In this document: positions 3,209 to 28,661 of the stretch, piece by piece
Layout: each line of letters opens with the position of its first letter
Numbering within the stretch: position 1 is the stretch's first letter
DNA from: Candidatus Planktophila sp.
GTDB taxonomy: Bacteria > Actinomycetota > Actinomycetes > Nanopelagicales > Nanopelagicaceae
Direction of reading: 5' to 3'
Length of the DNA stretch: 47,957 bases
Assembly (NCBI GenBank): GCA_013205535.1
Contig: JABMMN010000008.1
Span: 1-47,957, forward strand
The notes under the pieces: generated by a model
Database searches by the model: none
What the model saw: the letters and a program-made list of their open reading frames with translations, nothing else
What the model was told of the DNA's origin: nothing
Position numbers and translations under genes: made by a program

Positions 3209-3556
3209 ATGGCTGTAGCGAAAAAGAGTGTTGCAAAGAGAGCGGTTATCTCTCCAGCGCGAACCGGAGTTGACTGGAAATCACTCTATCTCTACGCGGT
3301 CTGTTTGATTACGTTAATGGTTGTTCTCTTTTCAGTCATTAGTTTTATCAATGGTATTTTAGGCGTTGCTTTACCAGAGTCCACCTACATCGATCCATAT
3401 GCGACAACTGCGGTTAAACCAGATGCAGCCGTACTGGCTGCCCAAGAGTCAAATGAGCAACGTCGTGCCGTGAGGGGCATGCTGGGCTCTTTAGTCACCT
3501 TCGCTGTTGCAGCGCCTTTGTATCTCTATCACTGGCGCCAGACCAAAACTATTTAG
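3209..3556 (+). CDS. Small two-TM membrane protein, DUF5671-like
   Basis: 'LYLYAVCLITLMVVLFS' and 'PLYLYHWR' TM segments. ATG 3209 preferred over TTG 3197. Confidence 0.6.
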   Translation: MAVAKKSVAKRAVISPARTGVDWKSLYLYAVCLITLMVVLFSVISFINGILGVALPESTYIDPYATTAVKPDAAVLAAQESNEQRRAVRGMLGSLVTFAVAAPLYLYHWRQTKTI

Positions 3557-4434
3557 CCCGCTAAAACTTTAGAGATCGCCGCGGTATGGGTCGGGGATGA
3601 GCCACAACATGAACCAACGATATTGACGCCCATAGTCTGCATCTTTACTGCCCACTTGGCCATCTCCTCTGGTGTTCCATCGTAGACAAACTCATCACCT
3701 TGAAGTTTTGGTAGCCCTGCATTTGACTGCGCAATTATAAATATGCCATCGGGGCGTGCATTCACCATCTCTTGCGCGATAAGCGTCATTTCATCCGTGC
3801 CCCGGCCACAGTTGGCTCCAATAATACGAACGCCAAGCCCGGCTAAGTGAGTGATGGCCATTCCCGGCTTGACACCCATCATCGTCCGCAGATTTGTATC
3901 AAAGCTCATAGTGGCGATAATCGGTAGATCAGGTGCAACCTCTTTTGCTGCATTAACTGCGGCCTCAACCTCACCTAAATCAGACATAGTCTCAATAAGA
4001 ATCGCATCGACGCCACCTGCAACAAGTCCGCGAATTTGTTCGGTAAATAGAGCCTGTCCACTTTCTAGAGTCATCGTGCCCATAGGCTCCATCAAATCTC
4101 CCGATGGTCCGATATCACCCATGACAAAGCAGCCTGGATGCCGATCGGCGACCTTGCGTGCAATCTGAGCACCGGCTTTGTTGAGCTCAAAGAGGCGATC
4201 TTCAAGGCCATGCATTGCAAGGCGGCCACGTGTGCCACCAAAAGTATTGGTAGTGATAAAGCGCGCACCTGCAGCAGCATATGCCTCGAGCACTGCCTCA
4301 ATTTCGCCAGGTTTATCTACGTTCCAGAGTTCAGGGGCGCCACCATCAGTTAATCCACGATCTTGCAACATTGTTCCCATCGCACCGTCGGATGTAAGTA
4401 CTCCCTTTTCAAGTGCCTCATAGATAGCTGACAT
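3553..4434 (-). CDS. Stand-alone homocysteine S-methyltransferase (MetH N-terminal/Bmt-like domain)
   Basis: 'DGAMGTML', 'TNTFG', 'IETMSD', Zn ligands 'GANCG' and 'GSCCG', 'SNAGLP'. 293 aa, without the pterin or cobalamin domains. Confidence 0.9.
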   Translation of the reverse strand: MSAIYEALEKGVLTSDGAMGTMLQDRGLTDGGAPELWNVDKPGEIEAVLEAYAAAGARFITTNTFGGTRGRLAMHGLEDRLFELNKAGAQIARKVADRHPGCFVMGDIGPSGDLMEPMGTMTLESGQALFTEQIRGLVAGGVDAILIETMSDLGEVEAAVNAAKEVAPDLPIIATMSFDTNLRTMMGVKPGMAITHLAGLGVRIIGANCGRGTDEMTLIAQEMVNARPDGIFIIAQSNAGLPKLQGDEFVYDGTPEEMAKWAVKMQTMGVNIVGSCCGSSPTHTAAISKVLAG

Positions 4435-4730
4435 TATTTCTCTCCCATACTCTCAAGTAAGGCCTCTAATTTTTCAACGCTCAAATCACCCTCTAGTTCA
4501 CTAACGATACGCGCTGCAAGAAGATCGGGTCTATCACTTGCCTCAACCCATGGATCACGATTCCATCCAGCGGTGTATGCATCGGCATCGATCTCACCCA
4601 GGCGCATTGCCGCCTCATCGATCGCCTCTTGAAACCGTGCTGCCAGCATTACCTTAATAGTTGTCTCACCTTCACGTGCGATTACCATTGACGGTATCTC
4701 ACGCCAGCGCATGATCTGATATTGGCTCAT
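4434..4730 (-). CDS. 'Virulence factor' family (PF13769-like) small protein, coupled to the homocysteine methyltransferase gene
   Basis: 'WREIPSMV...L.ARFQEAIDEAAMR...DAY...W' pattern. Its stop overlaps the downstream ATG at 4434. Confidence 0.7.
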   Translation of the reverse strand: MSQYQIMRWREIPSMVIAREGETTIKVMLAARFQEAIDEAAMRLGEIDADAYTAGWNRDPWVEASDRPDLLAARIVSELEGDLSVEKLEALLESMGEK

Positions 4731-4759
4731 ACCTCAATTCTATAGGGGAGAGATGTGCT

Positions 4760-6334: not shown

Positions 6335-6385
6335 TAATAAAGTATTTTTCACCACTACCGCCAATTATTCACGTATGCTTCATGT

Positions 6386-7120: not shown

Positions 7121-7149
7121 AGGGCTCGCCAGCGCAGGCTATCAATCTG

Positions 7150-7168: not shown

Positions 7169-7175
7169 CACCTCC

Positions 7176-7838
7176 ATGAGCCAGGTCATCCCGATTCTTC
7201 GCCGTGAGAGCACATCGCTCTCAGAGCAGGCCTACAGCCAGATCCGCTCGATGATCATCACATTAGAGCTTGAGCCCGGCTCCCTGATCAGTGAGAGCGA
7301 GTTGATGGCAACACTTTCAGTTGGTCGCACTCCGATTCGTGAGGCGTTGCGCCTGCTTGCAAATGAGAAATTGGTTGAGGTCTATCCACGCCGTGGAATG
7401 TTTGTCTCTCGCGTGGATGTGCATAATCTCTCTGCCCTTTCTGAGACGCGGGCAGTTCTGGAGATCAAAGCGGCCGAACTTGCAGCCACAAGATCTAGCG
7501 CGGCAGATCACGTTGTCACCAAGGCTCTTATCGCCGAGATAAAGGCACTTAAGGGCAATCTTGATATGGCGACACTGATCGGACTTGATCAGAGGATTCA
7601 CCATCATATTTATCAGTGCACTCATAATGATTTTCTTACCGCCGCTCTAGATAATTACTACGCACATGCACTGCGTATATGGTTTTTAGCTTTAGAGCGC
7701 GTTGCGGGCCTGACTGAGGCGGTTATCGAACATCAAGTGCTTCTTGAGGCGATTGCCAGTGGAGATGCCAAGGCTGCGGCAAAGGCGATGCGTGATCACG
7801 TTGAGGGCTTTGAAGCATCGATTCGTAAATCTCTATAA
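7176..7838 (+). CDS. GntR family (FCD/FadR subfamily) transcriptional regulator
   Basis: HTH 'ISESELMATLSVGRTPIREALRLL'; FCD 'DQRIHHHI...EHQVLLEAI...MRDHV'. Confidence 0.92.
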   Translation: MSQVIPILRRESTSLSEQAYSQIRSMIITLELEPGSLISESELMATLSVGRTPIREALRLLANEKLVEVYPRRGMFVSRVDVHNLSALSETRAVLEIKAAELAATRSSAADHVVTKALIAEIKALKGNLDMATLIGLDQRIHHHIYQCTHNDFLTAALDNYYAHALRIWFLALERVAGLTEAVIEHQVLLEAIASGDAKAAAKAMRDHVEGFEASIRKSL

Positions 7839-7868: not shown

Positions 7869-10388
7869 ATGAGTAAGTTACCAACAAAGGCAAAGTGTGT
7901 AGTCATCGGCGCAGGCATTGTCGGAAATGGCATGGTCTATCACCTTGCAAAGCTGGGTTGGAAAGATATCGTCCAGATCGATAAGGGACCCTTGCCAAAT
8001 CCTGGTGGATCTACAGGACATGCCTCGAACTTTATATTTCCAGTTGATCACTCAAAAGAGATGACGGCGATAACGGCCGAGAGTATGCGTCAATATAAAG
8101 AGTTTGGGACATTTACCGAGTCAGGTGGAATCGAAGTCGCTCGCACACCAGAGCGCATGCAAGAGCTTGCACGGCGAATAACATCGGCAAAGTCATGGGG
8201 CATTGAAGGGGGTCGTATCCTCACACCTGCTCAGGTCAAAGAGTTAGTTCCCTACATCGATGAGAGCGTCATATTGGGGGGCTATTACCAGCCTACGGTA
8301 GGCGTTGTTGACTCACTGCGAACCGGGACCCTGATGCGTGAAGAGGCTGCAAAGATGGGCGCAGCCCAATCATTTGCAAATATTGAAGTACTAGATATCT
8401 CTGTCGCAGACGGACGAGTCACTGGGGTTGTGACAGATCAAGGCACTATCGAGGCAGATTACGTCGTGATTGCAACTGGATGCTGGTCACCCAAGCTTGC
8501 AGCGATGGCTGGGGCTCATATTCCATTGACTCCTGCAGTACACCAGATGAAAGATATTGGGCCCGTGCCTTTCTTTGCTCAAACCAAGGGCGACATCGAG
8601 TGGCCGATTGTGCGTGATATGGATGTATTCATGTATGAGCGCCAACACGGGACTGGACTTGAAATCGGCTCATATGCTCACCGTCCGATTCTTTACACTC
8701 CTGAAGATATCCCTTCAAATGCCACAGCAACCCTGTCTCCAACAGAGTTTGCCTTCACTCAAGCAGATTTTGATATTCAAGATGAGCACTCTTACGAACT
8801 TATGCCCTCAATCGTGGGTGATGAAAACGTTCGTGAGAAGTATGCATGTAACGGAATCCTCTCCTATACACCGGATGGAATGCCAATCCTTGGAGAGACC
8901 CCGGAGGTCAAGGGCCTGTGGTCGGTAGCCGCTGTTTGGATTAAAGAGGGCCCAGGAACCTCAAAATCCGTAGCCGAGTGGATGGTCCTTGGTGATTCAC
9001 ACATCGACCTGCATGCATCAAATATTGCACGCTTTCATGAACACCAGAAGGCACAGTTTCATATCAAATCACGTGTCAATGAGAGCTTCAACAAGACATA
9101 CGGGATCGTGCACCCTCTCGAGCAGTATGCATCGAATCGAAATGTCCGCCTCTCGCCATTCTATGAATTAGAGAAAGAGCTTGGCGCGGTCTTCTATGAG
9201 ACCGCTGGTTGGGAGCGTCCATTCTGGTATGAATCAAATAAGAATCTGCTCGCAAAGTTTGGTGACAAGGTGATGCCACGCACGGCTGAGTGGGAGTCGC
9301 GTTGGTGGTCACCGATTATCAATGCAGAGCACCTACAAATGCGTGAGAGTGCGGGCATCGTCGATCTCTCAGCCTTCACGATCTTTGATGTGACTGGACC
9401 ATCGGCACTGGCCGTTGTCCAAAGAGCCGCGCTGCGTCAGATGGATGTCGCAATCGGAAGAGTGGTCTACACACCAATTCTGGGTCCCAATGGTGGATTC
9501 AAATCGGATTTAACGATCATGCGCTTGGATACCAATCACTTCCGTGTGGTCACGGGTGGGGCTCATGGAATGGCCGATAAAAAGTGGTTCAAAGACCTAT
9601 TACCCGAAGATGGCTCTGCACAGATCTCTGACCTCACATCGAGTTATACAACGATTGGTGTTTGGGGTCCTAAAGCCCGCCAGATTATCCAATCCATTAC
9701 TGCAAAGGATATGAACCATGAGGCATTCAAGTTCAGCACCTGCACAGTAATCGAGATAGGACCACTACGCGTGCTTGCTTCGCGAATCTCTTACGTCGGA
9801 GATCTTGGCTGGGAGTTCTATATCCCAATCGAACAGGGCGCACTGTTGTGGAAGATGTTGTGGGAAGCGGGAAAGACACACGAGATGATTCCCGTTGGAA
9901 TTGGCGTCTACGGCACCACGGGTCGACTTGAGAAGTGCTATCGCGCCTATGGTCCAGAGCTCGAGACGGAGTACACAGTCGTTGAAGCTGGAATGCAATC
10001 ACCTAAGTTGAAAGAGGCCGACTTTGTTGGCAAAGCGGCACACATCAAGCATCGCAGCGAGAGGCCTGTCACGATGCTCTGTACGCTCTTTGTCGATGAT
10101 CACAGATCATCAAATGGGGAGAAGCGCTACATGATGGGCAATGAACCAATCCTGACTTTGGATAAGCAGCCAATTATCGATACTCATGGTCGCCGCTCAT
10201 ATGTCACTAGTGCGGGATCTGCCCCATCACTGGGTAAGCATATTTTGATGTCTTATCTGCCGACAGAGCTCGCCGTTGCTGGCAATAAGTTCCTCGTGGA
10301 GTATCTGGGCGAGCACTATCCGTGCTCCATCACCGAGGTCGGTGCCACATCGGTCTTTGATCCCTCAAATGAACGGATCATGGCCTAA
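7869..10388 (+). CDS. Dimethylglycine/sarcosine dehydrogenase-like flavoprotein with C-terminal GcvT folate-binding domain
   Basis: 'VVIGAGIVG', 'GGSTGHA' (His for covalent FAD), 'YTPDG.P.LG', 'GWERPFWY', 'RISYVGDLGWE', 'RLEK.YR'. 839 aa; coupled to ETF genes. Confidence 0.85.
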   Translation: MSKLPTKAKCVVIGAGIVGNGMVYHLAKLGWKDIVQIDKGPLPNPGGSTGHASNFIFPVDHSKEMTAITAESMRQYKEFGTFTESGGIEVARTPERMQELARRITSAKSWGIEGGRILTPAQVKELVPYIDESVILGGYYQPTVGVVDSLRTGTLMREEAAKMGAAQSFANIEVLDISVADGRVTGVVTDQGTIEADYVVIATGCWSPKLAAMAGAHIPLTPAVHQMKDIGPVPFFAQTKGDIEWPIVRDMDVFMYERQHGTGLEIGSYAHRPILYTPEDIPSNATATLSPTEFAFTQADFDIQDEHSYELMPSIVGDENVREKYACNGILSYTPDGMPILGETPEVKGLWSVAAVWIKEGPGTSKSVAEWMVLGDSHIDLHASNIARFHEHQKAQFHIKSRVNESFNKTYGIVHPLEQYASNRNVRLSPFYELEKELGAVFYETAGWERPFWYESNKNLLAKFGDKVMPRTAEWESRWWSPIINAEHLQMRESAGIVDLSAFTIFDVTGPSALAVVQRAALRQMDVAIGRVVYTPILGPNGGFKSDLTIMRLDTNHFRVVTGGAHGMADKKWFKDLLPEDGSAQISDLTSSYTTIGVWGPKARQIIQSITAKDMNHEAFKFSTCTVIEIGPLRVLASRISYVGDLGWEFYIPIEQGALLWKMLWEAGKTHEMIPVGIGVYGTTGRLEKCYRAYGPELETEYTVVEAGMQSPKLKEADFVGKAAHIKHRSERPVTMLCTLFVDDHRSSNGEKRYMMGNEPILTLDKQPIIDTHGRRSYVTSAGSAPSLGKHILMSYLPTELAVAGNKFLVEYLGEHYPCSITEVGATSVFDPSNERIMA

Positions 10389-11143
10389 TGGATGTGCTTG
10401 TCTGTTTGAAACGAGTTCCATTAGCAGGTGGAACTCTGATCCTGACCCCAGATGCACGTGATATCGAGACTAAACATCTAGGTTTTGGAATCAGTCCACA
10501 TGAAGAGAATGCCGTTGAAGCTGGAGTGCAGTTAGTCGAGCAGATGGGTGGCACTCTGACGCTTTTGACTCTTGGCCCAAGTGATGCCGAGGAGCAGTTG
10601 CGCTCTCAATTGGCGATCGGTGCTACACGTGCAGTGCTCATCGAAACCGATGGACAAGAGTGGGATCCTCAGGGGACGGCAGCTGCATTGGTGGATGCAA
10701 TCAAGGCCGAAGAGACGAAGTTTGATCTGATCATCTTTGGCGCAGAGTCGGCCGATAGTGCAGGTTATCAAATCCATATTCGAATGGCTCACGCCTTGGC
10801 TCTACCTATCATCACGAATGTGAAGTCGATGAAAGTTGAAAATGGCACGGTCAGTTGTGATCGTGTCGTTGCGAACGGGCGCGAGCACTACGAGGCTCCG
10901 CTACCAGCGATAGTCACCGTGCGAGATGGTCTGAATATCCCTCGCTACCCATCGGTACCAGGACGTATGCAGGCGCGAAAAAAGATTGTAGATATGAAAA
11001 AAGCCGAGGCTCGTGTCCCAAAGCTGGAAAAGGTAACACTGGCCCTTGCACCATCAAAGGATAAAAGCGCACAGATTCTTGGAAAAGGTGCCGATGCAGT
11101 ACCTGCCTTAGTCGATGTCTTGAAACAGATTGGAGCTGTGTGA
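10388..11143 (+). CDS. etfB: Electron transfer flavoprotein beta subunit
   Basis: 'VCLKRVP', 'ENAVEAG', 'GAESAD', 'PRYPS'. Confidence 0.92.
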   Translation: MDVLVCLKRVPLAGGTLILTPDARDIETKHLGFGISPHEENAVEAGVQLVEQMGGTLTLLTLGPSDAEEQLRSQLAIGATRAVLIETDGQEWDPQGTAAALVDAIKAEETKFDLIIFGAESADSAGYQIHIRMAHALALPIITNVKSMKVENGTVSCDRVVANGREHYEAPLPAIVTVRDGLNIPRYPSVPGRMQARKKIVDMKKAEARVPKLEKVTLALAPSKDKSAQILGKGADAVPALVDVLKQIGAV

Positions 11144-12102
11144 TGATTTTAGTTCTCATCGATCACGATCGTGGAGAGATAGATCCTCTTTCACTGCGCG
11201 CATTGACCGCCGCTAAAAAATTAGATCAGGATGTAGAGGCGGTAGTCATTGGTAGCGATGGTGCGATTCTCGCTGGCATCGCAGGTGAATACGGAGCAAA
11301 GGTGCTACACGTTGCATCCCACAGTGCGATTGGTGACTACACACCCATGGCCTCAGGCCGGGCACTCAAAGATCTCGTGGCAAAACTCAATCCCGCTGCA
11401 GTCTTGGCCGCTGGAAGCCCACGCGGAAATGAACAGTTAGCCCACCTTGCCGCCTTCCTTGATATTCCAATGGCCGCTGAATGTTCAGAGATCACATTGG
11501 GTAGGCCTCACAACGTGCTACGTGCACGATGGGCAGGCAACTTGATTGAGTCGGCACTCGTTCACTCACAACTTCTGGTTGCAACGATCCTAAGTTTCTC
11601 CACTGAGCCACAATCATTAGGTGGGCCAGCGGCATCGGTTGTGCAGTTCGAACCTGCACTCGAGCCGGCAGACTCTGTCGTAAAGATCCTCAGTCGCGAT
11701 GCTGGGGAGTCAAAGGGTGGAGTGACTCTCAATGATGCAAAGGTCATCGTCTCAGGTGGTCGTGGTGTTGGCGGGCCCGATGGATTTGGCAATTTAGAAG
11801 AGCTCGCAGCCCTTCTTGGTGGGACAGTTGGATGTTCTCGCGTCGTGACAAGCTCTGGTTGGAGGCCACATGCAGAGCAAGTGGGTCAGACCGGTACGAA
11901 GGTTGCACCAGATCTGTATATCGCTGCCGGTATCTCAGGGGCGATGCAACATATTGCCGGCATGAAGAATAGTAAGACGATTGTTGTCATCAATACCGAT
12001 CCTGAGGCCCCGATCCTTCGTTACGCCGACTATGCGATTATCGGGGATCTACACCAAGTTATTCCTGCGCTTACGAGCGCAATCCGTGCAGCCAAGGGAT
12101 AG
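11143..12102 (+). CDS. etfA: Electron transfer flavoprotein alpha subunit
   Basis: 'VSGGRG', 'QVGQTG', '[15 protein letters not shown]', 'INTDPEAPI'. TGATG coupling to etfB. Confidence 0.93.
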
Positions 12103-18449: not shown

Positions 18450-19115
18450 CTAAACAGAGACCGATGCGCGTTTTTTGGCGATGAGATCTTTGGCGATGCG
18501 CACGGCAGTCGATGCATCGGCGGCAAAGCCATCGGCGCCGACGACATCGGCATACTCCTGCGTAACGGGTGCCCCACCCACCATGATAAATACCTGATCG
18601 CGCAGGCCAGCCTTAGTAATCTCATGAATATTTACTTTAAACATTGGCATAGTCGTCGTTAAAAACGCCGACATTCCGACGATATCTGGCTTGTGTTCAA
18701 GGATTCCAGCGATGAATTTTTCAGGTGAAACCTGTACACCTAGATCAATGACGTCAAAGCCGGCGCCTTCCAGCATGATATTGACCAAATTCTTGCCAAT
18801 ATCGTGTACATCGCCTTTGACTGTACCCATTAAATATGTGCCAACTGTTTCAGCCCCGGTCTCAGCCAGAAGTGGGCGAAGCACGCTTAGAGCCCCCGAC
18901 ATCGCCTTACCTGAAACGAGCATCTCCGGTACGAAGAAATCTCCTCGCTCAAAGCGCGCACCAACCTCCTCTAGCGCGGGAATGAGTGCATCAAAAAGGA
19001 TAGTGCTGGGGGTCATTCCACCGGCAATCCCTTGATTGGTGAGCTCTAGAACTGCAGGAGCATTGCCAACTAAAGTTTCATCAAAGAGGGCTTTGATGAT
19101 TTCATCATGAGTCAT
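18450..19115 (-). CDS. Stand-alone corrinoid (B12-binding) protein, MtbC/MtgC-like
   Basis: Cap domain 'VGARFE.G.FFVPEML', 'GDVHDIGKN' (DxHxxG), 'SAFLTTT', 'MVGGAP'. Confidence 0.93.
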   Translation of the reverse strand: MTHDEIIKALFDETLVGNAPAVLELTNQGIAGGMTPSTILFDALIPALEEVGARFERGDFFVPEMLVSGKAMSGALSVLRPLLAETGAETVGTYLMGTVKGDVHDIGKNLVNIMLEGAGFDVIDLGVQVSPEKFIAGILEHKPDIVGMSAFLTTTMPMFKVNIHEITKAGLRDQVFIMVGGAPVTQEYADVVGADGFAADASTAVRIAKDLIAKKRASVSV

Positions 19116-19873
19116 GCTGCACCTATCTTTCCCTGCTTATTTATTTGGAGTGTGTGAATCTCGTCAATTATGACATCGCCAATCCTTGCTAAATCTCGTG
19201 CACTTAATCGCCTAGAAGGACCTGAGATTGAGATCGCCCCTACGACATGTCCATCATCTTCACGAACTGGTGCAGCTACTGCAACTAATCCATCTTCAAG
19301 CTCATCAGAGATGATGGCATATCCCTGTTTGCGCACACCTTCCAGCTCGGCCAATAAGCCAGAACGCGTGGTGATCGTCTTACTTGTGAGCCGCTCCAAC
19401 TTACCGGCTGGAATTGTTGCAACACCGTTTGCTAGAAGGACCTTGCCCAAGGCCGATGCATGGAAAGGGATCGCCTTGCCGACCCAGTTGGTCGCCCCTA
19501 AAAGATAATGAGAATCGACTTGATCGATTAATCTCATCTCACCATTGCCTGCAACGGCTAAGTTGGCAGTTTCACCTGTGCTTAGAGCCAGTTTTTCTAG
19601 AACTGGGCGCATTCGGGTAACTAATATCGAATCCTGGTTTTGTGAGCGTGCAAACTGAGTAAGAACATCTCCAGCGATGAAGGCTCCTGCGCTATCTCTG
19701 CGCACAAGACCGGCTCTCTCGAGTGCACTTAACATTCTGGAGGTCGTACTTTTTGGCAGCTCGTGATCACGCGCAATATCCGATAAAATTGGGGGAATCG
19801 GTGCCTCAAGGATGTGAATGAGCAGGGCATTAGCGCGATCAATTGCCTGAGTTCCGTTGACTAATTCGCTCAT
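19112..19873 (-). CDS. IclR family transcriptional regulator
   Basis: 'TQAIDRA', HTH 'LPKSTTSRML', 'GETANL', 'HASALGKVLLA', 'AVAAPV', 'AISISGP'. True start is ATG 19873 (RBS GAAAGGTG); the listed 20041 start overlaps the divergent gene. Confidence 0.92.
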   Translation of the reverse strand: MSELVNGTQAIDRANALLIHILEAPIPPILSDIARDHELPKSTTSRMLSALERAGLVRRDSAGAFIAGDVLTQFARSQNQDSILVTRMRPVLEKLALSTGETANLAVAGNGEMRLIDQVDSHYLLGATNWVGKAIPFHASALGKVLLANGVATIPAGKLERLTSKTITTRSGLLAELEGVRKQGYAIISDELEDGLVAVAAPVREDDGHVVGAISISGPSRRLSARDLARIGDVIIDEIHTLQINKQGKIGAA

Positions 19874-19900
19874 GTCTTCACCTTTCCTCAGCGAGGAGTA

Positions 19901-19936
19901 TTCCATCATATGGAACCAATGTTCCACTATATAGGG
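19901..19936. promoter_or_regulatory. IclR-type operator in the divergent promoter region
   Basis: Palindrome TTCCAT-CAT-ATGGAA (19901-19915) and a degenerate second copy TTCCACTATATAGGG (19922-19936), 21 bp apart. Confidence 0.65.
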
Positions 19937-19983: not shown

Positions 19984-21420
19984 ATGTTTGAAAATAAGAT
20001 GCCGCGATACGAGATTTTAAGCCAGGAGTCGATGGCCACATTGACCCTGGGCTGGCGGCGCATCGTCTCGGAGATCGGTATCGAGTTCATGTCGCCGTGG
20101 GCGATCGATCTTTTGCGCGAGGCCGGACAGACGGTGGAGGGCGAAAATGTAAAGTTTGATCCCGACTGGGTACTCAAGCAGTGTGCACTTGCTCCAAGCG
20201 AATTCAATCTTCGCGCTCGCAACCCTTCAAACAACGTCCACATGGGTGGAAACTCAATGGTCTTTGGTGGCGTTTATGGCCCTCCATTTGTTCGTGAAGG
20301 TGATCTGCGCCGTGATGCAACATTTAAGGACTTTGAAAACTTTTGTAAGCTATCTCAATCATTTGAGGCCCTTGATAGCGTCGGTGGGGTCGTATGCGAA
20401 CCCAATGATTTATCTCTAGATTCACGTCACTTGGACATGGCATATGCCGCGGCCACCCTGACCGACAAGTTCTTTATGGGCAACGTTGTGACGGCAGAGA
20501 ACGCAAAAGATGTCATCACAATTGCTGAGATTATTCACGGTGGACGCAGCGCAATCGTCGATACCCCAGCTTTGATCTCACTTGTAAATTGCAACTCACC
20601 ACTGCGCTGGGATGATCGCATGTTGGATTCGATGCGCGAGTATGTCTTGGCCGGTCAGCCAGTCGTTGTCACCCCATTTTTGCTCATGGGTGCCATGAGT
20701 CCAGTGACGATTCCAGCCACATTAGCTCAGCAGATTGCCGAGGCATTAACTGGGATTGCACTTGCACAGACCCTGAACCCAGGATGCCCGATCGTCTTTG
20801 GCTCGTTTCTTTCAAATATAGATATGCAATCTGGCTCCCCTCAATTTGGCACACCAGAGTCTGGAATCGGGCTGCTATGCACTGGTCAAATCGCTCGCAG
20901 TTTCAACCTGCCATTTCGCGGCGGCGGCGGTTTGAACTCTTCACAGACCGTCGATGCACAATCTGCCTACCAAACGATGATGACGATGATGCCAACATTC
21001 CTCTCTGGCACCAACTGGGTCATGCATACTGCAGGCTGGCTTGAAGGTGGCCTCGTATCCTGTTACGAGAAGTTCGTTCTCGATATTGAGATACTGCAAT
21101 CACTCATGACCGAGTTCACCCCTCTTGAGTTCAACGTCGAATCATTGGCCTTTGATGCACATTTGGAGGTCGGCCATGGTGGCCACTTCTTGGGCGCGGC
21201 CCACACAATGGAGCGCTTTCGTGACTGCTTCTATCGACCTTTCTTGACCAATAGCGATAACTTCGAGCGCTGGACGCGTCTAGGTGGCAAAGATACGAAG
21301 GCCCGCGCAGCCGAGATCTATCTCAAGAAGTTAGAGAATTACGTTGCTCCAGAAATGGATTCACGCATGCGTCAAGAGCTCGATGAGTTTGTGGCGATGC
21401 GCAAAAGCCAACTAGATTAA
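19984..21420 (+). CDS. mttB: Trimethylamine-methyltransferase (MttB) superfamily, non-pyrrolysine; probable glycine betaine:corrinoid methyltransferase (MtgB-like)
   Basis: 'AP.EF.L.ARNP', 'NSPL.WD', 'GAMSPVT', 'GTPE', 'LPFRGGGGL...DAQ', 'H.AGWLEGGL..CYEK', 'GGHFLG..HT'. No in-frame UAG. Substrate inferred from neighbours. Confidence 0.88.
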   Translation: MFENKMPRYEILSQESMATLTLGWRRIVSEIGIEFMSPWAIDLLREAGQTVEGENVKFDPDWVLKQCALAPSEFNLRARNPSNNVHMGGNSMVFGGVYGPPFVREGDLRRDATFKDFENFCKLSQSFEALDSVGGVVCEPNDLSLDSRHLDMAYAAATLTDKFFMGNVVTAENAKDVITIAEIIHGGRSAIVDTPALISLVNCNSPLRWDDRMLDSMREYVLAGQPVVVTPFLLMGAMSPVTIPATLAQQIAEALTGIALAQTLNPGCPIVFGSFLSNIDMQSGSPQFGTPESGIGLLCTGQIARSFNLPFRGGGGLNSSQTVDAQSAYQTMMTMMPTFLSGTNWVMHTAGWLEGGLVSCYEKFVLDIEILQSLMTEFTPLEFNVESLAFDAHLEVGHGGHFLGAAHTMERFRDCFYRPFLTNSDNFERWTRLGGKDTKARAAEIYLKKLENYVAPEMDSRMRQELDEFVAMRKSQLD

Positions 21421-21427
21421 TTCCACT

Positions 21428-22903
21428 ATGGTCGCAACGCTCTACATCAACGGTCTCTGGCGAGAGGCATCAGATGGCGGATCTCACGATGTACAAAGTC
21501 CACACGATCAAAGCGTCGTCGCTACCGTCTCTCAGGCGAGCCAAACTGATGTCCTCGATGCTATCGCCGCTGCACGCGCATCCTTTGATAGTGGAGTATT
21601 TACCTCCTGGAGTTTCAAGGAGCGCAGTGAGTTAGTTGCAAAAATTGCAGATCTATTAGAGCGCGATGCCGATGTGATAGCCCGTAAAGAGAGTGATGAT
21701 ACGGGCAAGCGTTTTATCGAAGCGCAGTATGACGTGGCCGATGTCGTTGCAACCTTTAGGCACTTCGCATCCCTTGGCGCAAAAGAGCATGGGCGTAGTG
21801 TGGATGTCGGTATCGCACATGTTTCAAGCCGGATCGTTCATGAGCCCTTGGGTGTTGCCTCATTGATAGGTCCCTGGAACTACCCGCTACTGCAAATCGC
21901 CTGGAAGGTCGCACCAGCATTGGCCGCTGGCTGCTCCTTCATCATCAAACCAAGTGAGTTGACACCACAGAGTGCTATCGCCTTGACCAAGATCATCGAA
22001 GAGGCCGGCACTCCCAAAGGTGTCGCTAATTTGATCCTTGGTCCTGGCTCAGTTGTCGGGAGTTCACTCATCAGCGATCCCCGTGTTGATCTAGTCTCAT
22101 TTACCGGGGGATTAACAACGGGTCAGACCATCATGAAGGCAGCTGCCACCACCATCAAGAAGTTAGCACTTGAACTCGGTGGCAAGAATCCACACATCAT
22201 CTTTGCCGATGCCGACTTGGATGCTGCAATCGATAATGCAGTCACCGCGGCATTCTTACATTCAGGTCAAGTCTGCTCAGCCGGTACACGATTAATCGTT
22301 GAGCGCTCCGTGCATGATCGTGTTGTTACAGAGATTGTGCATCGTGCCGGAAAAATCAAACTCGGTGGTCCGAATGATGAATCGGCAGAGACTGGTCCAC
22401 TCATCAGCAAGTCACATTTGGCTAACGTCTCTACATATGTTGAAAAAGCAATCGCAGAGGGCGCCACATTATTGATCGGTGGAGAGCGCAGCGATAAAGC
22501 AGAGCACGCCAAGGGTTGGTATTTCCTGCCCACTGTCTTTGATAACTGCACGAGTGATATGTCATGTGTCCAAGATGAGTCCTTCGGTCCAATCATGACG
22601 GTAGAGATTTTTGACACCGAGGCGCAGGCGATTGCAATCGGCAATGACACGGTCTTTGGATTATCAGGTGGGCTCTGGAGCGGTGATAGTCAAAAGTGCG
22701 CTCGGGTTGCCAGCGCACTTCGCCACGGCACCATCTGGGTCAATGACTTTGGGCCTTACCGCCCGGCGGCAGAGTGGGGCGGATACAAGCAATCGGGGAT
22801 AGGCCGTGAATTGGGCGAGCATGGTCTGGGTGAGTACCTTGAAATCAAGCACATTTGGACCAACAATGCTCCTAGTCGATCTGGATGGTTCAAAGATCTC
22901 TAA
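21428..22903 (+). CDS. betB: Betaine-aldehyde dehydrogenase
   Basis: 'PWNYPL', 'KPSE', 'SFTGG', 'LELGGKNP', 'GQVCSAG', 'ESFGP', 'GGYKQSG.GRE'. Context with betA. Confidence 0.85.
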
Positions 22904-22920
22904 GTGAAGGGGTGAGCTCA

Positions 22921-23949
22921 GTGAGTACTGAAGCACCCATGATCACGGTAAGAAATCTGTGGAAGGTCTTTGGTACTAATCCAGAGAAAGTGATGGGCAG
23001 TGCCCTCGCCGATTTAACGAGATCAGAGCTGCGCGCCAAAACCGGCAACACGATCGCAGTTCGTGATGTCTCATTTGATGTCGCCCCCGGTGAAGTCTTC
23101 GTGGTCATGGGGCTCTCGGGCTCAGGCAAATCAACACTCGTACGTTGTATGACTCGCTTAATCGAACCTACTGCCGGAACTCTGACCTTTGAGGGCGAGG
23201 ATGTATTAAGCGTTGATGCCGCGCGTCTGCGTGAACTTCGTAAGACCCGTTTCTCAATGGTCTTTCAGCACTTTGGCTTACTTCCACACCGCAAGGTGAT
23301 CGATAACATCGCATACTCCCTTGAGATTAATGGAGTGAAAAAAGCCGAGCGCCATGCCCGCGCCAATGAGGTCATCGAACTCGTTGGTTTACAGGGATAT
23401 TCGCATGCATATCCTGAGCAGTTATCAGGTGGAATGCAACAGCGCGTCGGACTTGCCCGCGCATTGGCCGTTGACCCACAGGTTTTGTTTTTGGATGAGC
23501 CCTTTAGCGCACTTGACCCATTAATTCGAAGAGATATGCAGCAGGAGATCACTCGCCTACATCACGAACTCGGTAAAACGATGGTCTTTATTACACACGA
23601 TTTATCCGAGGCGGTAAAAGTTGGGGATCGCATCGCAATCATGCGCGATGGAGCGATAGTCCAGACAGGAACCCCAGAGGATCTGGTGGCAAATCCCATC
23701 GATGATTACGTCGCCAACTTTGTGCGCGATATCCCTAAATCACATGTGCTTACACTCAAGTATCTGGCTCGTAAATCTCACACAGGTGAGGCTCTGGATG
23801 GTCCAGAGCTGCCGGCAACCATGATTATCCGTGATGCTGCAGAGGTCATACTGCAGACTCATAAACCCGTGCGTGTGAGCGATAATGGAAAGGCTCTGGG
23901 CGTTGTCTCCAGTGAGGACGTACTGCGCTTGATTGCCGGAGTCACTTGA
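22921..23949 (+). CDS. proV: Glycine betaine/choline ABC transporter ATPase (ProV/OpuAA family)
   Basis: '[13 protein letters not shown]', '[16 protein letters not shown]', '[12 protein letters not shown]', 'FITHD'. Start approximate (GTG 22912 or 22921). Confidence 0.9.
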
Positions 23950-25877
23950 TGCCTGTTCGAAAATCCTATGTACTTTTAGGATCGGTTGTAGTCTGGATTT
24001 TTCTTGCTCGCATTCTCAATGGTAGGCACACCTTACAAATCGCTACATATGAGAATACTTTCTTTACATCCTTCGTTGGAGAGAGGGCGTTATCTATCCG
24101 TGGCAATCGCACGGAGAGCACAGCCTTCATTTACTTTTTCAATCCTATTCGTGGCGTGATTGATGGTTTCGTTCAGGCCATTAGAGATTTAATCGCTGTT
24201 CCAGCCCCAAATTCAGTGATACCGATCATTGGTTGGCTTGGTGTTATTGGAATCGTTGCCTTTGTAGTCTTTGCGACAAGCCAGTGGAGAACCGCCCTTT
24301 TATCTGTCTCTCTTCTCCTTGGTTGTGGAGTATTGGGTATGTGGCAGTTCACTATGGATTCAATTGCGCTCACTCTCGCAGCGGTCTTGCTTTCATTGGC
24401 CTTTGGTCTGCCTTTAGGTATCTGGGCAGGGTTATCTGATCGTGCATTAAGAGTTATGACTCCGTTTTTGGATTTAGCTCAGATTTTACCGACGCTTGTG
24501 TATATGGCCCCGATTGCACTCGTGTTTATGATTGGTGCGGCATCGGCAACGATTGCGACGATGATTTATGCGATTCCAATCTGTATACGCATCACCTCAC
24601 ACGCCATTAGAACTCTCAATCCTGCACCTGTGGAGGCATCCCTCTCGATGGGTTCGACCTCAAGCCAGACGTTGCGAAAAGTACAAATGCCCATGGCGAA
24701 GCAGATGATTGTCTTAGGGATAAATCAAACGGTAATGGCCGCTCTCTCCTTTGTCGTTATCGCAGCCCTTATTGGTGCGCCCGGACTTGGCAACCCGGTG
24801 ATCTCAGCGCTTATCATTCGAAATGTAGGTCAGGGCTTTGTGGCGGGAATTGCAGTGGTTTTCCTGGCAATTTTGATGGATCGCAGCACAAGCGCAGCGG
24901 CAAAGCGTCAAGAAACATTTATCCCCCCGAGCGCCCAGGATATAAAGCGAAAGCGCCTGACATTATTGATCACAGGAATCCTTGCGATTGTGACTGTCTT
25001 TATCTCTCGCACCGTTCTTTGGGCCGCTATCTGGCCTAAAGAGTTCATGGTTGCCCGACAAGTCCAGGAGATCACCAATGATGTAACGGCTTGGATATTA
25101 GAGAATCTCTTTATTTTCACTAATGGATTGAAAGACCTTATCTCGTACTCAATTCTTAACCCTCTTGAGACGATTCTCTCTCAATCTCCCTGGTATTTGA
25201 CGGTCTCAATGATTATTTGTTTAGCTGTAGTAATTGGTGGAGTGCGCACGGGAATCCTCGCGGGTGTCTTGGCCATGTGTATCGTCGTCTCAGGTCTCTG
25301 GTTTGAGTCTATGTTGACTCTGACCCAAACTATCGTCGGTACTTTACTTACAATGATCTTTGGAATGGCACTTGGAATCTGGGTAGGACGCAGTGATAGG
25401 GCAGCGCGCTCTTTGAGGCCCTTTCTCGATGCCGGTCAGACGCTTCCAGCCTTTGTATACCTGGTGCCGATTCTGGGACTGTTTGGTCCCACTAGGTTTA
25501 CTGCAATCCTTACGGGTGTCATCTATGCAACCCCTGTTGTGGTAAAACTTGTGAGCGAAGGAATTCGTTCAGTACCTACAACACTTATTGAGGCGGCAAC
25601 AGCGGCTGGATCAACGACTCGACAGATTATTATGAAGGTTCAATTACCGGCGGCAAAGAAAACAATTGTGTTAGCGACCAATCAGGGTCTGATCTATGTC
25701 CTGGCCGTGGTTGTGATTGGTGGTTTTGTTGGCGGAGGCGGGCTTGGCTATCTAGTCATCGTGGGAAATTCAAAGCCAGAGCTCCAAGGTAAGGGCCTCA
25801 TAGCCGGTGCCTGCATTCTGCTTCTAGGGGTAATTTTTGATCGGATCATGCAGGCCGGGGCCCGTCGCTCGAGTTAA
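23949..25877 (+). CDS. ABC transporter permease with two fused ProW/OpuAB domains
   Basis: Repeat 1 'LDLAQILPTLVY...EAS.SMG...KVQMP'; repeat 2 'LDAGQTLPAFVY...EAA.AAG...KVQLP'. About 640 aa. Confidence 0.88.
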   Translation: MPVRKSYVLLGSVVVWIFLARILNGRHTLQIATYENTFFTSFVGERALSIRGNRTESTAFIYFFNPIRGVIDGFVQAIRDLIAVPAPNSVIPIIGWLGVIGIVAFVVFATSQWRTALLSVSLLLGCGVLGMWQFTMDSIALTLAAVLLSLAFGLPLGIWAGLSDRALRVMTPFLDLAQILPTLVYMAPIALVFMIGAASATIATMIYAIPICIRITSHAIRTLNPAPVEASLSMGSTSSQTLRKVQMPMAKQMIVLGINQTVMAALSFVVIAALIGAPGLGNPVISALIIRNVGQGFVAGIAVVFLAILMDRSTSAAAKRQETFIPPSAQDIKRKRLTLLITGILAIVTVFISRTVLWAAIWPKEFMVARQVQEITNDVTAWILENLFIFTNGLKDLISYSILNPLETILSQSPWYLTVSMIICLAVVIGGVRTGILAGVLAMCIVVSGLWFESMLTLTQTIVGTLLTMIFGMALGIWVGRSDRAARSLRPFLDAGQTLPAFVYLVPILGLFGPTRFTAILTGVIYATPVVVKLVSEGIRSVPTTLIEAATAAGSTTRQIIMKVQLPAAKKTIVLATNQGLIYVLAVVVIGGFVGGGGLGYLVIVGNSKPELQGKGLIAGACILLLGVIFDRIMQAGARRSS

Positions 25878-25971
25878 ACCAAAGAAAGGCTCGCTTTTAA
25901 GCCTGCACCACCTACCTTTAACCCGATTTACACCCTAGGCTAAGTCAAAATTCAAACTCTGAGGAGGGTTC

Positions 25972-26934
25972 ATGAAGTCATTATTTAGGCCTCGCTCCGC
26001 AGTACTTAGTGCTGTTATCGCAGCTGCCTTGGTCGTTTCAGGGTGTAGCAGCAGCGTTAATGACTCTGCAGGCGAGGCATCAGGAGACTGCGGATCATGG
26101 GCAATTGCCATGCACGCATGGAATGGTTACACAGCATCGGCACAGGTAGTCGCCGAGATTGCTAAAAAGGAGTTAGGTTGCTCGATCACTCAGACCACAT
26201 TGGATGAAGGTCCGACTACTTATGATGCAATGGAGGCCGGAACAATCGATTTGATTATCGAAGATTGGGGCGGTGGACGTTGGCAAGAGTGGAGTGATAG
26301 AGGCGCAGTCATTGATCTTGGAGATGGTGGAAACGTTGGCCTCATCGGTGTCTATGTTGCACCGTGGATGGCTGAAAAATATCCAGATATCGTCGACTCC
26401 AAGAATCTTGGAAAGTATGCCGATCTCTTCAAGAATGCAGATTCAGGTGGCAAGGGCGCTTGGTATGAAGGTCCTCCGGGCTACACAACAATCGGTGAAA
26501 AGATGGTCTCTGCTAACAAGTTGAACTTCAAGGTCATCTTTGCAGGATCAGAGGCAGCTCTCATCGATGGTTTCACAAAGGCTGAGGCTAATAAGACTGC
26601 ATTCATTGGTTATGCATGGCAGCCCTGGACTCTTCACGCAAAGCTACCCAATCTTGAAAAGGGACATGTGAAGTTCCCTGCTAATGATTGGGTCGATGCA
26701 GCCACGGCCAGTGGTCTCACAGATTACCCATCAACACCACTCAAGAAGTTAGTATCCAAGAAGTTAAATGACAGTAACGGAGCATTTATGACTTTGATCA
26801 AGAACTTCAAGTGGACCAATGATGATCAGAACCTCGTTGCTCTTGATATCGAAGATGGAGCAACACCAGAGGCAGCGGCCCAGAAGTGGATCGATGCTCA
26901 CGCCGATATCGTGAAAAAGTGGCTCGGTAAGTAA
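25972..26934 (+). CDS. Glycine betaine-type ABC substrate-binding lipoprotein (ProX/OpuAC family)
   Basis: Lipobox 'VSGC', aromatic residues 'AWNGY', 'EDW', 'YAWQPW', C-terminal 'AAQKWI'. Strong RBS GAGGAGG. Confidence 0.85.
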   Translation: MKSLFRPRSAVLSAVIAAALVVSGCSSSVNDSAGEASGDCGSWAIAMHAWNGYTASAQVVAEIAKKELGCSITQTTLDEGPTTYDAMEAGTIDLIIEDWGGGRWQEWSDRGAVIDLGDGGNVGLIGVYVAPWMAEKYPDIVDSKNLGKYADLFKNADSGGKGAWYEGPPGYTTIGEKMVSANKLNFKVIFAGSEAALIDGFTKAEANKTAFIGYAWQPWTLHAKLPNLEKGHVKFPANDWVDAATASGLTDYPSTPLKKLVSKKLNDSNGAFMTLIKNFKWTNDDQNLVALDIEDGATPEAAAQKWIDAHADIVKKWLGK

Positions 26935-26948
26935 TTAGTTAACGATCG

Positions 26949-26999
26949 AATAACGCCCTTACTCGGTGAGAAATCACTGGGTAGGGGCGTTATTTATTT
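26949..26999 (+). terminator. 21-bp hairpin with GAAA tetraloop and T-rich tail
   Basis: AATAACGCCCTTACTCGGTGA-GAAA-TCACTGGGTAGGGGCGTTATT (26949-26994) pairs fully, with three G-U pairs, and is followed by TATTT. Confidence 0.8.
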
Positions 27000-27014
27000 A
27001 GTAGTATCTCGGGC

Positions 27015-28661
27015 ATGAGCCAACCGTATGACTACATCATCGTTGGTGGTGGCTCAGCCGGGAGTGCTCTGGCCAATCGATTGAGTGAGAACCCTGCGCA
27101 TCGAGTATTAGTTCTTGAGGCCGGTCGCCCTGATTACAAGTGGGATGTGTTCATCCATATGCCTGCCGCCCTGGCATTTCCAATCGGCAGCAAGTTCTAT
27201 GACTGGAAGTATGAGTCTGAGCCTGAGCCACATATGAATAATCGCCGTATCTATCATGCACGCGGCAAAGTCCTGGGTGGCTCTTCATCGATCAATGGAC
27301 AGATTTGGCAGCGTGGCAACCCCTTGGATTATGAGCGCTGGTCAAAGGATGAGGGGATGAGTAGTTGGGATTTTGCACACTGCCTGCCCTACTTTAAAAA
27401 AATGGAGAACTGTTTGGCGGATCAGAGCAATATTTTTCGCGGCAACAATGGCCCACTCAAGCTTGAACGTGGACCAGTCAAAGGCCCTTTGTTTGCCGCG
27501 TTTTTCAAAGCAACTGAGCAGGCTGGTTATCCACGCACAGATGATGTCAATGGCTATCGACAAGAGGGTTTTGCCGCCTTTGATCGAAATGTGTATCGGG
27601 GCCGGCGCTTAAGCGCTGCTCGCGCATATCTCTATCCAGTGATCAAACGCGCCAACTTGAGCGTGAAAACACGAGCTCATGTCACAAAAGTCTTATTTGA
27701 TGGCACAACTGCAACAGGAGTTGAGGTCGTGATTAAAGGAAAGAAGCACATCTTCAATTCACGTGAAGTCATACTGTGCGGAGGCGCTATCAATACCCCA
27801 CAGATTTTGCAGTTATCGGGGATCGGAAATGAAAAAGATCTCGCACCACTTGGAATCAAGATGGTGCATCACCTGCCCGGAGTTGGCGCAAATCTTCAAG
27901 ACCACCTCGAGGTCTATGTCCAGTACAAGTGCAAACAGCCAGTGACACAGCAGCCGATAACGCAGTTCTGGCGCAGACCATTTATTGGGGCTGCCTGGCT
28001 CTTCTTTCGCAGGGGCCCAGGTGCTACCAATCAATTTGAGGCTGGGGGCTTTACCAGAAGTAATAACGATGTTGCCTATCCCAATTTGATGTTTCACTTC
28101 CTGCCTCTTGCCATCCGCTATGACGGCACGGGAGATACTCGCGGACATGGCTATCAAGTCCACGTTGGCCCTATGTACTCCGACTCTCGTGGTTGGTTGA
28201 AGATAAAGAGTTCCGATCCCTTTGAAAAACCGGCAATTCAATTCAATTACCTGTCCACCAATGAAGATCGCCGTGAATGGGTTGAGGCTGTGAAAACTGC
28301 ACGAAACATCTTGACACAGCCAGCCATGGCAGATTACAACGCCGGTGAATCATCTCCAGGTGCATCCGTCGCAAGTGATGAGCAGATTCTCGAGTGGGTG
28401 CGCAAAGATGCCGAAACCGCGCTGCATCCATCATGTACAGCAAAGATGGGTAGCGATGCAATGTCAGTTGTCGATCCGGAAACGATGAAGGTATATGGTG
28501 TTGAAGGTCTTCGTATCTGTGATGCATCGGTCTTTCCTTACGTACCCAATGGAAATATATATGCACCCGTCATGATGGTCGCTGAGAAAGCTGCAGATCT
28601 CATCTTAGGAAATACGCCTTTGGCGCCACAAAGGACTGAGTTCTATCGACATGCAAAGTAA
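27015..28661 (+). CDS. betA: Choline dehydrogenase (GMC oxidoreductase)
   Basis: '[12 protein letters not shown]', 'IHMPAAL', '[13 protein letters not shown]', 'NLQDHLE', 'ETALHPSCT', 'NGNIYAP'. Confidence 0.93.

What the first reader, a model, noticed from the sequence alone, without database searches (positions are those of the whole stretch)
3553..28661. Near-complete choline/betaine corrinoid-dependent demethylation and C1 cluster in a probable streamlined freshwater actinobacterium
Seen: ABC importer, betA, betB, MttB-family methyltransferase, corrinoid protein, pterin methyltransferase, homocysteine methyltransferase, RamA/RACo activator, MetV-like+MetF, Fhs, DMG-dehydrogenase-like enzyme and ETF within ~25 kb, in operons with their own regulators. 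Known: MtgB/C/A-type systems move a betaine methyl group via a corrinoid to THF in anaerobes such as Desulfitobacterium and acetogens, and related genes occur in Rhodobacteraceae. Inferred route: choline -> betaine -> DMG + CH3-corrinoid -> methionine or CH3-THF -> CH2-THF -> formyl-THF -> formate + ATP, with DMG oxidised into ETF. An oxygen-sensitive, B12-demanding methyl-oxidation module in an acI-like aerobe would imply a little-recognised freshwater methylovory niche. I cannot confirm novelty without a search.
Basis: partly seen in the sequence, partly recalled or inferred. Interest (0 to 1): 0.88.

Follow-up and report, generated by a model that had tools for sequence, protein, structure and literature searches.

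The report
Lake bacterium's B12 betaine-demethylation cluster
A common oxygen-breathing lake bacterium carries an intact gene cluster that likely imports choline, likely strips its methyl groups with a vitamin-B12 enzyme for energy, and likely doubles as its only way to make methionine; the same system was shown in aerobic marine bacteria in 2025, so the host is new but the mechanism is not.

Summary
The host is most likely Ca. Planktophila (acI-A) with cytochrome c oxidase. The cluster has the gene set of the aerobic MtgBCDE betaine demethylase / split methionine synthase of Ruegeria and Phaeobacter, so an oxygen-sensitive corrinoid module in an aerobe is already in print. This scan found it before in other acI genomes.

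Added here: in 141 genus genomes MtgB (41) and fused MetH (97) are almost mutually exclusive (both 1, neither 4), though only 3 independent pairs back this. This genome's metH site is empty. 38 of 41 carriers also have formate dehydrogenase; this genome and its nearest relative lack it, so methyl carbon would stop at formate. A published KEGG table lists mttB in five cultured strains, including P. vernalis, without comment.

Betaine as substrate is inferred: three of four MtgB site residues are kept. Verdict: real, ecologically relevant, new member of a known kind.

The parts
3553..4434 (-). mtgE: stand-alone homocysteine methyltransferase module of a split methionine synthase
   Evidence: PF02574 E 1e-66; GANCG/GSCCG Cys motifs; 44% to S. 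meliloti bmt in its mtg locus; in 38 of 41 MtgB carriers, 0 of 96 MetH-only genomes
4434..4730 (-). 98-aa PF13769 protein, stop codon overlapping the mtgE start; function unknown
   Evidence: Pfam E 7e-13; beside mtgE in three complete genomes and in the S. meliloti mtg locus; overlap seen
7176..7838 (+). GntR/FCD regulator heading the dmg-etf-fhs operon
   Evidence: PF00392+PF07729
7869..10388 (+). Dimethylglycine oxidase/dehydrogenase-family flavoprotein with folate-binding domain
   Evidence: DAO, FAO_M, GCV_T; best solved match N,N-dimethylglycine oxidase 1PJ5, E 1e-149
10388..11143 (+). EtfB
   Evidence: PF01012; start overlaps the flavoprotein stop
11140..12102 (+). EtfA
   Evidence: PF00766+PF01012
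12105..13769 (+). Fhs, formate-tetrahydrofolate ligase; in most relatives followed by fdsG-fdsB-fdsA, which are missing here
   Evidence: NF010030 889 bits over cut-off 652; junction comparison
13786..14370 (-). DUF1638, partner of the B12 reactivase
   Evidence: [quoted passage not shown]
14367..16241 (-). RamA/RACo-type ATP-dependent corrinoid reactivase
   Evidence: Fer2, RACo linker, middle, C-terminal domains
16274..17149 (-). mtgD: methyl-THF:corrinoid methyltransferase
   Evidence: PF00809; NF005719 over cut-off
17164..18060 (-). MetF2-type methylene-THF reductase
   Evidence: PF02219; distinct from the canonical metF on contig C58
18060..18440 (-). MetV-like Cys-rich subunit
   Evidence: PF12225; 8 Cys
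18450..19115 (-). mtgC: corrinoid protein
   Evidence: PF02310+PF02607; DVHDIG at residue 102
19112..19873 (-). IclR regulator, first gene of the leftward operon (start at 19873 from homologue alignment)
   Evidence: PF09339+PF01614; intergenic alignment
19900..19927 (.). Conserved near-palindrome between the divergent operons plus a second half-site; predicted IclR operator
   Evidence: Conserved block in 69 aligned intergenic regions; motif in 78 of 83 loci with MtgB >=80% identical, 5 of 29 below that; single match in the window, 0.02 expected (pattern was derived from this site)
19984..21420 (+). mtgB: pyrrolysine-free MttB-family methyltransferase
   Evidence: PF06253 E 3e-179; Y98, R312, H348 match D. 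hafniense Y97, R312, H348; G356 in place of F356, W352 nearby
21428..22903 (+). Aldehyde dehydrogenase, likely BetB
   Evidence: Nearest solved structures are betaine aldehyde dehydrogenases; TIGR01804 best but under cut-off
22885..23949 (+). ProV-type ABC ATPase
   Evidence: TIGR01186 over cut-off
23946..25877 (+). Double permease of the quaternary-amine importer
   Evidence: PF00528 twice; TIGR03416 best, under cut-off
25972..26934 (+). OpuAC/ProX-family binding lipoprotein; ligand not determined
   Evidence: PF04069; only distant solved relatives, best E 4e-19
27015..28661 (+). BetA choline dehydrogenase; fdhD follows in FDH-bearing relatives, missing here
   Evidence: NF002550 and TIGR01810 over cut-off

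Best explanation
The cluster is an intact MtgBCDE-type system in an aerobic Planktophila-like lake actinobacterium that likely imports choline or betaine, likely moves the first methyl of glycine betaine onto a B12 protein and from there to folate or homocysteine, and likely serves as the cell's only methionine synthase because the fused metH gene is gone. Shown by sequence: gene content, order, intact frames, motifs, the empty metH site, no FDH or molybdenum-cofactor genes found. Inferred from known families: BetA and the aldehyde dehydrogenase turn choline into betaine; MtgB methylates Co(I)-MtgC, giving dimethylglycine; MtgD passes the methyl to THF (or back, for methionine synthesis without betaine); MtgE passes it to homocysteine; RACo with DUF1638 rescues oxidised Co(II); MetF2/MetV oxidise methyl-THF; the cluster's flavoprotein and a second one on contig C5 remove the other two methyls as methylene-THF with electrons to ETF; FolD and Fhs give NAD(P)H, ATP and formate. 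Most relatives would burn formate with an NAD-linked FDH; this genome would export it or use formyl-THF for biosynthesis. B12 would be scavenged. The role would be supplementary energy, methyl groups and glycine (methylovory), not growth on betaine alone.
For: Gene families and motifs. Same divergent layout and accessory genes as the Sinorhizobium and Paracoccus mtg loci, at 30-49% identity. Genetics in aerobes: R. pomeroyi mtgC and mtgD needed for both methionine and betaine use (PMC12478193); P. inhibens mtgB1; five-gene split synthase (PMC5764234). MtgB site residues Y98, R312, H348 invariant in 115 of 115 aligned homologues; the G356/W352 variant is shared with the Sinorhizobium and Paracoccus mtg-locus enzymes. 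mtgB, aldh, importer and betA in one run of genes in most related loci. MetH: 1 of 41 MtgB carriers against 96 of 100 non-carriers; flanking genes of metH are adjacent on G000 contig C12; no MetE in 5 of 5 genomes tested. FDH in 38 of 41 carriers and 0 of 96 MetH-only genomes, second flavoprotein in 38 of 41 and 4 of 96: the oxidative tail travels with MtgB. COX1, FolD, SHMT in G000. AdoCbl-riboswitch-like element (45.3 bits, cut-off 50) before a periplasmic-binding/FecCD transporter on C33; no CobS in G000.
Against: F356, whose loss raised Km several hundred-fold in D. hafniense MtgB, is glycine here; R312 is shared by carnitine, proline-betaine, butyrobetaine and phosphocholine enzymes, so it does not fix the substrate. 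MtgC scores under both NCBIfam MtgC cut-offs. The binding protein has no close characterised relative. The MetH/MtgB exclusion rests on 3 independent pairs, p 0.5, and does not hold in two genera with larger genomes (20 of 45 family carriers keep MetH). No CCG-domain ETF acceptor was found in this 87%-complete assembly (present in 4 of 4 others). No SdaA-type serine dehydratase in 5 of 5. Three literature searches gave nothing on choline or betaine supply in lake water that I read (listing only).
Confidence: 0.72

Rival explanations
1. Same machinery, other methyl donor: MtgB acts on choline/phosphocholine, proline betaine, dimethylglycine or another methylated amine, and betaine is only a side substrate.
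For: F356 replaced by Gly; aromatic pair is not conserved in non-betaine family members; binding protein only distantly related to known ones; a choline-kinase-like gene sits beside the second flavoprotein and a metallophosphoesterase beside mtgE; a copper amine oxidase follows betA in some loci.
Against: betA and the BetB-like dehydrogenase, which make betaine, are in the mtgB run of genes; a dimethylglycine-type enzyme for the product is linked; the same W/G motif is in proteobacterial mtg-locus enzymes; no monooxygenase gene lies in the window to fill the betaine-to-dimethylglycine step (not searched genome-wide).
Confidence: 0.15
2. The cluster is mainly anabolic: it is kept as a methionine synthase and methyl scavenger (betaine perhaps also an osmolyte), with little energy gain.
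For: It is the only methionine synthase found in 40 of 41 carriers; canonical metF was not found in 21 of 41 carriers, including two complete genomes; FDH is dispensable in this lineage.
Against: A 25-kb cluster replaces a 3.5-kb gene in a streamlined genome; FDH, its cofactor genes, Fhs, ETF and two demethylating flavoproteins travel with it; 20 family carriers keep MetH and still keep the cluster.
Confidence: 0.1
3. The module works only when oxygen is low, as in Desulfitobacterium-type anaerobic respiration, or came recently from an anaerobe.
For: RACo and MetV-like proteins resemble those of anaerobes; one P. vernalis strain has a nitrate-reductase island (PMC12817590).
Against: As sole methionine synthase it must work in oxic growth unless methionine is always imported; COX1 present; GC 49.9% against 49.6% for the genome; MtgB tree follows the RpoB tree apart from G123; nearest outside relatives are other actinomycetes at 66-73%.
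Confidence: 0.03

Closest known systems
Aerobic MtgBCDE glycine betaine demethylase / split methionine synthase of Ruegeria pomeroyi DSS-3 and Phaeobacter inhibens (PMC12478193; bioRxiv 10.64898/2025.12.19.695462; PMC5764234)
   Same: MtgB, C, D, E, RamA-like activator, DUF1638, MetF2; aerobic host; carriers mostly lack fused MetH and MetE (about 70% in that paper); linked betaine and C1 genes. The Sinorhizobium and Paracoccus loci have the same divergent layout.
   Different: Actinomycete host and fresh water; proteins only 30-49% identical; one compact cluster under IclR and GntR with choline importer; host apparently a B12 scavenger rather than producer; exclusion of MetH within the genus is nearly complete; this lineage has no FDH found. 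No experiment exists here.
Desulfitobacterium hafniense MtgB/MtgC/MtgA (PMC13080624; PDB 2QNE, 9YCE)
   Same: Pyrrolysine-free MttB fold along the whole length (E 1e-114); Y97, R312, H348 kept; corrinoid protein, THF methyltransferase and RamA homologue nearby.
   Different: F356 is Gly; anaerobic respiration there; no methionine-synthase role described; MtgC under the model cut-offs.
One-carbon capacity noted for Planktophila (PMC12817590; PMC5301498)
   Same: FDH, molybdenum cofactor, GlyA, FolD, Fhs in P. vernalis, IMCC19121, P. limnetica, P. polyoliphila; betaine/proline transporter, FDH and Moco in acI-A7; mttB, betA, fhs scored in the same five strains in Suppl. Table 13.
   Different: Neither main text links these genes to choline or betaine demethylation (betaine, choline, methionine: 0 hits in PMC12817590; one table hit in PMC5301498). 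The KEGG table scores metH (K00548) present in carriers too, which would hide the swap.

Membership tests
Aerobic MtgBCDE (Mausz 2025) | Pyrrolysine-free PF06253 methyltransferase | tested here: met
   Open 478-aa frame, PF06253 E 3e-179
Aerobic MtgBCDE (Mausz 2025) | Stand-alone corrinoid (PF02310), pterin (PF00809) and homocysteine (PF02574) modules | tested here: met
Aerobic MtgBCDE (Mausz 2025) | RamA-like activator plus DUF1638 instead of the PF02965 reactivation domain | tested here: met
Aerobic MtgBCDE (Mausz 2025) | MetF2 paralogue beside mtgD | tested here: met
Aerobic MtgBCDE (Mausz 2025) | Host aerobic and lacking fused MetH and MetE | tested here: met
   COX1; no fused MetH, empty site; MetE not found in the 87%-complete assembly or two complete carriers
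Aerobic MtgBCDE (Mausz 2025) | MtgC and MtgD required for both methionine synthesis and betaine use | not testable with these tools
   Needs genetics or reconstitution
Aerobic MtgBCDE (Mausz 2025) | MtgB/MtgC fall in the clade of the R. pomeroyi or P. inhibens proteins | not tested
   Those sequences were not among the records I could fetch; Sinorhizobium and Paracoccus homologues are 42-46% identical
Glycine betaine-specific MtgB (D. hafniense) | R312 and H348 bind the carboxylate; Y97 binds the ammonium | tested here: met
   Y98, R312, H348
Glycine betaine-specific MtgB (D. hafniense) | Second aromatic residue F356 | tested here: not met
   Gly in 115 of 115; W352 is a candidate substitute, not shown
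Glycine betaine-specific MtgB (D. hafniense) | [quoted passage not shown] | not testable with these tools
   Enzyme assay needed
Pyrrolysyl trimethylamine methyltransferase MttB | In-frame amber codon for pyrrolysine; TIGR02369 cut-off | tested here: not met
   No in-frame stop; 245.8 bits against 525
Direct betaine-homocysteine methyltransferase (BHMT) | One enzyme binding betaine and homocysteine, no B12 | tested here: inconclusive
   NF005718 274.8 against 338; 44% to S. meliloti Bmt, which PMC12478193 treats as MtgE lacking betaine-binding residues; residues not mapped here
Wood-Ljungdahl methyl branch of acetogens | CODH/ACS and corrinoid iron-sulfur protein | not tested
   None in the window; AcsV and AcsE models under cut-off; not searched genome-wide

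The most novel reading that the evidence does not exclude
The cluster marks a methylovorous ecotype of the dominant lake genus, including its most abundant species P. vernalis: about three in ten Planktophila species burn choline-derived methyl groups for energy, have discarded MetH (half also canonical MetF) so that their methionine supply runs through the betaine module and scavenged B12, and the FDH-less lineage seen here makes ATP at Fhs and releases formate into oxic lake water.
Probability: 0.35. Interest if true: 0.62.

Novelty: new member of a known kind. Interest (0 to 1): 0.38.

Why it matters
Planktophila is among the most abundant bacteria in lakes and up to 20 species coexist (PMC12817590). 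A choline/betaine-fuelled one-carbon route would name the missing methyl source for its published formate dehydrogenase and Fhs genes, give one concrete axis of niche separation, and add a freshwater sink for choline and betaine. It is directly testable: five cultured strains carry mttB. It also warns that KEGG metH calls hide a swap between fused and split methionine synthase. The chemistry itself is known.

Tried and rejected
Rfam at gathering thresholds and ARAGORN found nothing in the window. Recent transfer from anaerobes or Proteobacteria: rejected on GC, tree congruence and nearest relatives. Misassembly as the cause of missing FDH: rejected, since G095 (99% complete) is collinear over 20 kb across the fhs/DUF1638 junction and has no FDH match; G118 is inconclusive because the stretch fetched begins at its contig start inside the activator gene. 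My idea that mtgE is gained only where MetH is lost: rejected, mtgE matches were found in 40 of 40 further carriers searched, including the 20 with MetH. Statistical co-evolution of MtgB gain and MetH loss: not shown (3 pairs, p 0.5). First RpoB tree held one mis-extracted outgroup row (G041); rebuilt without it; G000 itself has no rpoB match and is not on that tree; 50 of 141 genus genomes were used. Lake RNA libraries: four runs from four studies hold near-identical contigs over the cluster (29, 25, 21, 29 of 30 bins for 3001-23000; e.g. 2618 bases with 4 differences over mtgD-mtgC), but flanking DNA is partly covered too (25, 17, 8, 25 of 30 bins for 23001-43000), the runs were chosen for holding mtgC-mtgB, and contigs give no strand or level, so transcription is not shown. 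ESM Atlas gave only PF13769 look-alikes for the small protein. A regular expression for the MetV Cys pattern matched nothing; Cys were counted instead. bioRxiv 10.64898/2026.09.15.751800 had no hit for my terms. The three supplements of PMC12478193 held as text had no hit for Actino, Planktophila, Nanopelagic or Acidimicrob. No structure or complex prediction was run.
Full report
Observation. The ORF list and family scans confirm every gene named, in three blocks: mtgE leftward at 3553-4434; gntR, a dimethylglycine-oxidase-family flavoprotein, etfB, etfA, fhs rightward at 7176-13769; and a divergent pair, iclR-mtgC-metV-metF-mtgD-raco-duf1638 leftward (19873-13786) and mtgB-aldh-proV-proW-proX-betA rightward (19984-28661). 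A near-palindrome at 19900-19916 between the divergent operons is conserved in 78 of 83 close loci and is the likely IclR operator (inferred).

Host. G000 is 1.17 Mb, 49.6% GC, 86.6% complete; its genus holds complete genomes of 1.3-1.5 Mb. Cytochrome c oxidase subunit I is present. Cluster GC equals genome GC.

Distribution. In an even draw of 141 genus genomes at least 80% complete, 41 have MtgB (24 of 73 high-quality). In 201 family genomes, 45, in 6 of 17 genera. Gene order is kept across loci; the named loci and the genome handles overlap in part and are not independent. An MtgB tree of 23 rows recovers the three carrier groups of the RpoB tree, except G123, which points to mostly vertical descent.

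Replacement of MetH. The reactivation domain of fused MetH (PF02965) is in 97 of the 141 genomes but in 1 of the 41 carriers; 4 genomes have neither. Stand-alone mtgE is in 38 of 41 carriers and 0 of 96 MetH-only genomes. In G000 the two genes that flank metH in G123 are adjacent on contig C12, so the absence is not a gap. MetE was not found in 5 of 5 genomes. On an RpoB tree of 50 genus genomes the state changes 4 times, 3 forced by strong branches, but only 3 independent pairs exist and the sign test cannot reach significance. At family level the exclusion is partial: 20 of 45 carriers keep MetH (16 in one genus and 2 in another, all 1.7-2.1 Mb, plus 2 more), while two other genera have lost it in 8 of 8 and 5 of 5 carriers. 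All 40 further carriers searched match mtgE. The simplest reading (inferred) is an ancestor with both systems and repeated loss of one of them in the smallest genomes. Canonical metF was not found in 21 of 41 carriers; G000 keeps it.

Formate. In three complete carriers an NAD-type formate dehydrogenase (fdsG, B, A) lies between fhs and duf1638, with fdhD after betA and, in two of the three, a molybdenum-cofactor operon next to tauE. FDH is in 38 of 41 carriers, 1 unassigned genome and 0 of 96 MetH-only genomes. In G000 all three positions are closed junctions inside the window and the genome gives only complex I hits for the FDH subunits and none for the cofactor genes. G095 shares the layout; among named loci 3 of 27 with fhs or fdhA next to duf1638 have fhs. 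FolD and SHMT are present.

Substrate. D. hafniense MtgB binds betaine with Y97, F356, R312 and H348 (PMC13080624, parts 1-3 of 6 read). The window enzyme has Y98, R312, H348 but G356, with W352 close by in sequence; all five are invariant in 115 aligned homologues, and the same W/G motif is in the Sinorhizobium and Paracoccus enzymes that sit in mtg loci. That paper notes R312 is common to all characterised members, so residues alone do not decide. Context does most of the work: betA and a BetB-like dehydrogenase make the substrate, and a dimethylglycine-type enzyme is linked for the product. A second such flavoprotein on contig C5 co-occurs with the cluster and would complete the route to glycine (inferred). 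B12 is probably imported: AdoCbl-riboswitch-like element just under cut-off before a transporter, no CobS; acI were described as cobalamin auxotrophs (PMC5301498, passages).

What is known. PMC12478193 (parts 1-3 of 6 and a supplement search) shows in aerobic R. pomeroyi that MtgC and MtgD are needed for both methionine synthesis and betaine use, lists MtgB, MtgE, RamA, DUF1638 and MetF2, finds about 70% of carriers without metH, and assigns 5% of ocean mtgC reads to Actinomycetota. bioRxiv 10.64898/2025.12.19.695462 (passages) adds an mtgB1 mutant. PMC5764234 (passages) first described the split synthase. For acI, PMC5301498 (passages) lists FDH, Moco and a betaine transporter in tribe A7 and sees no methylotrophy; PMC12817590 (passages, section 17, four parts or searches of supplement 3, which is cut as stored) notes one-carbon capacity in P. 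vernalis, IMCC19121, P. limnetica and P. polyoliphila, and its table scores mttB, betA and fhs in those five strains, with no mention of betaine, choline or methionine in the text. PMC12381374 (passages) adds nothing on this. Searches listed no paper describing the pathway in acI; Neuenschwander 2018 was not held and subscription journals are largely missing, so absence from print is not proven. Earlier notes of this scan report the same cluster in other acI and actinomycete genomes; a word search for the MetH and FDH pattern gave none.

Verdict. A real, conserved, intact cluster that works like MtgBCDE and meets every sequence-level feature of it; it fails one of four active-site residues of the D. 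hafniense enzyme, so betaine specificity is likely (about 0.8) rather than shown. The premise that corrinoid methyl transfer is odd in an aerobe is wrong. What is not in the literature I could search is the host, the link to the published one-carbon genes of the most abundant Planktophila, the near-complete MetH swap within the genus and the FDH-less variant. New member of a known kind; interest 0.38.

Noticed in passing
window 4434-4730 (-): PF13769 'virulence factor' protein coupled to mtgE here and lying upstream of metV-metF-mtgD in Sinorhizobium; a candidate unrecognised accessory subunit of Mtg systems.
   Followed up: partly
G000 contig C5 (L107:998-2938) and L101:8882-12263: Second DAO+GcvT flavoprotein, closer to mammalian dimethylglycine dehydrogenase, next to a choline-kinase-like gene between rplI and dnaB; in 38 of 41 carriers and 4 of 96 MetH-only genomes. 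Which enzyme takes dimethylglycine and which sarcosine is open.
   Followed up: partly
window 28686-30545 (+): Copper amine oxidase 24 bases after betA, nearest solved relative phenylethylamine oxidase; present in only some related loci.
   Followed up: partly
window 4760-6364 (-): TIGR03767 metallophosphoesterase stays next to mtgE even where mtgE lies 130 kb from the cluster (G029); could release choline from phosphate esters (untested).
   Followed up: no
G123 (L108, L109): Only genus genome with both MtgB and fused MetH; no mtgE match; its MtgB groups away from its RpoB neighbours, suggesting later transfer or mis-binning.
   Followed up: partly
G029, G031 (complete genomes): Only MTHFR found is the cluster's MetF2, so it must run reductively or methionine methyl must come from betaine or uptake.
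   Followed up: partly
window 26949-26994: Terminator-like inverted repeat followed by T-rich bases between the binding-protein gene and betA, seen by eye.
   Followed up: no
window 7158-7167: Perfect 10-base palindrome just upstream of gntR, possible operator, seen by eye.
   Followed up: no
window 37036-37800 (-): Heliorhodopsin (NF038020 over cut-off).
   Followed up: no
window 30563-32047 (+): One frame joining a UbiA prenyltransferase domain to a PHB-depolymerase-like esterase; in G031 a frame of like length, in G136 only 219 aa.
   Followed up: no
G029:C1:94483-98568: AdoCbl riboswitch, transporter and CobS close together: cobinamide salvage in a carrier.
   Followed up: no
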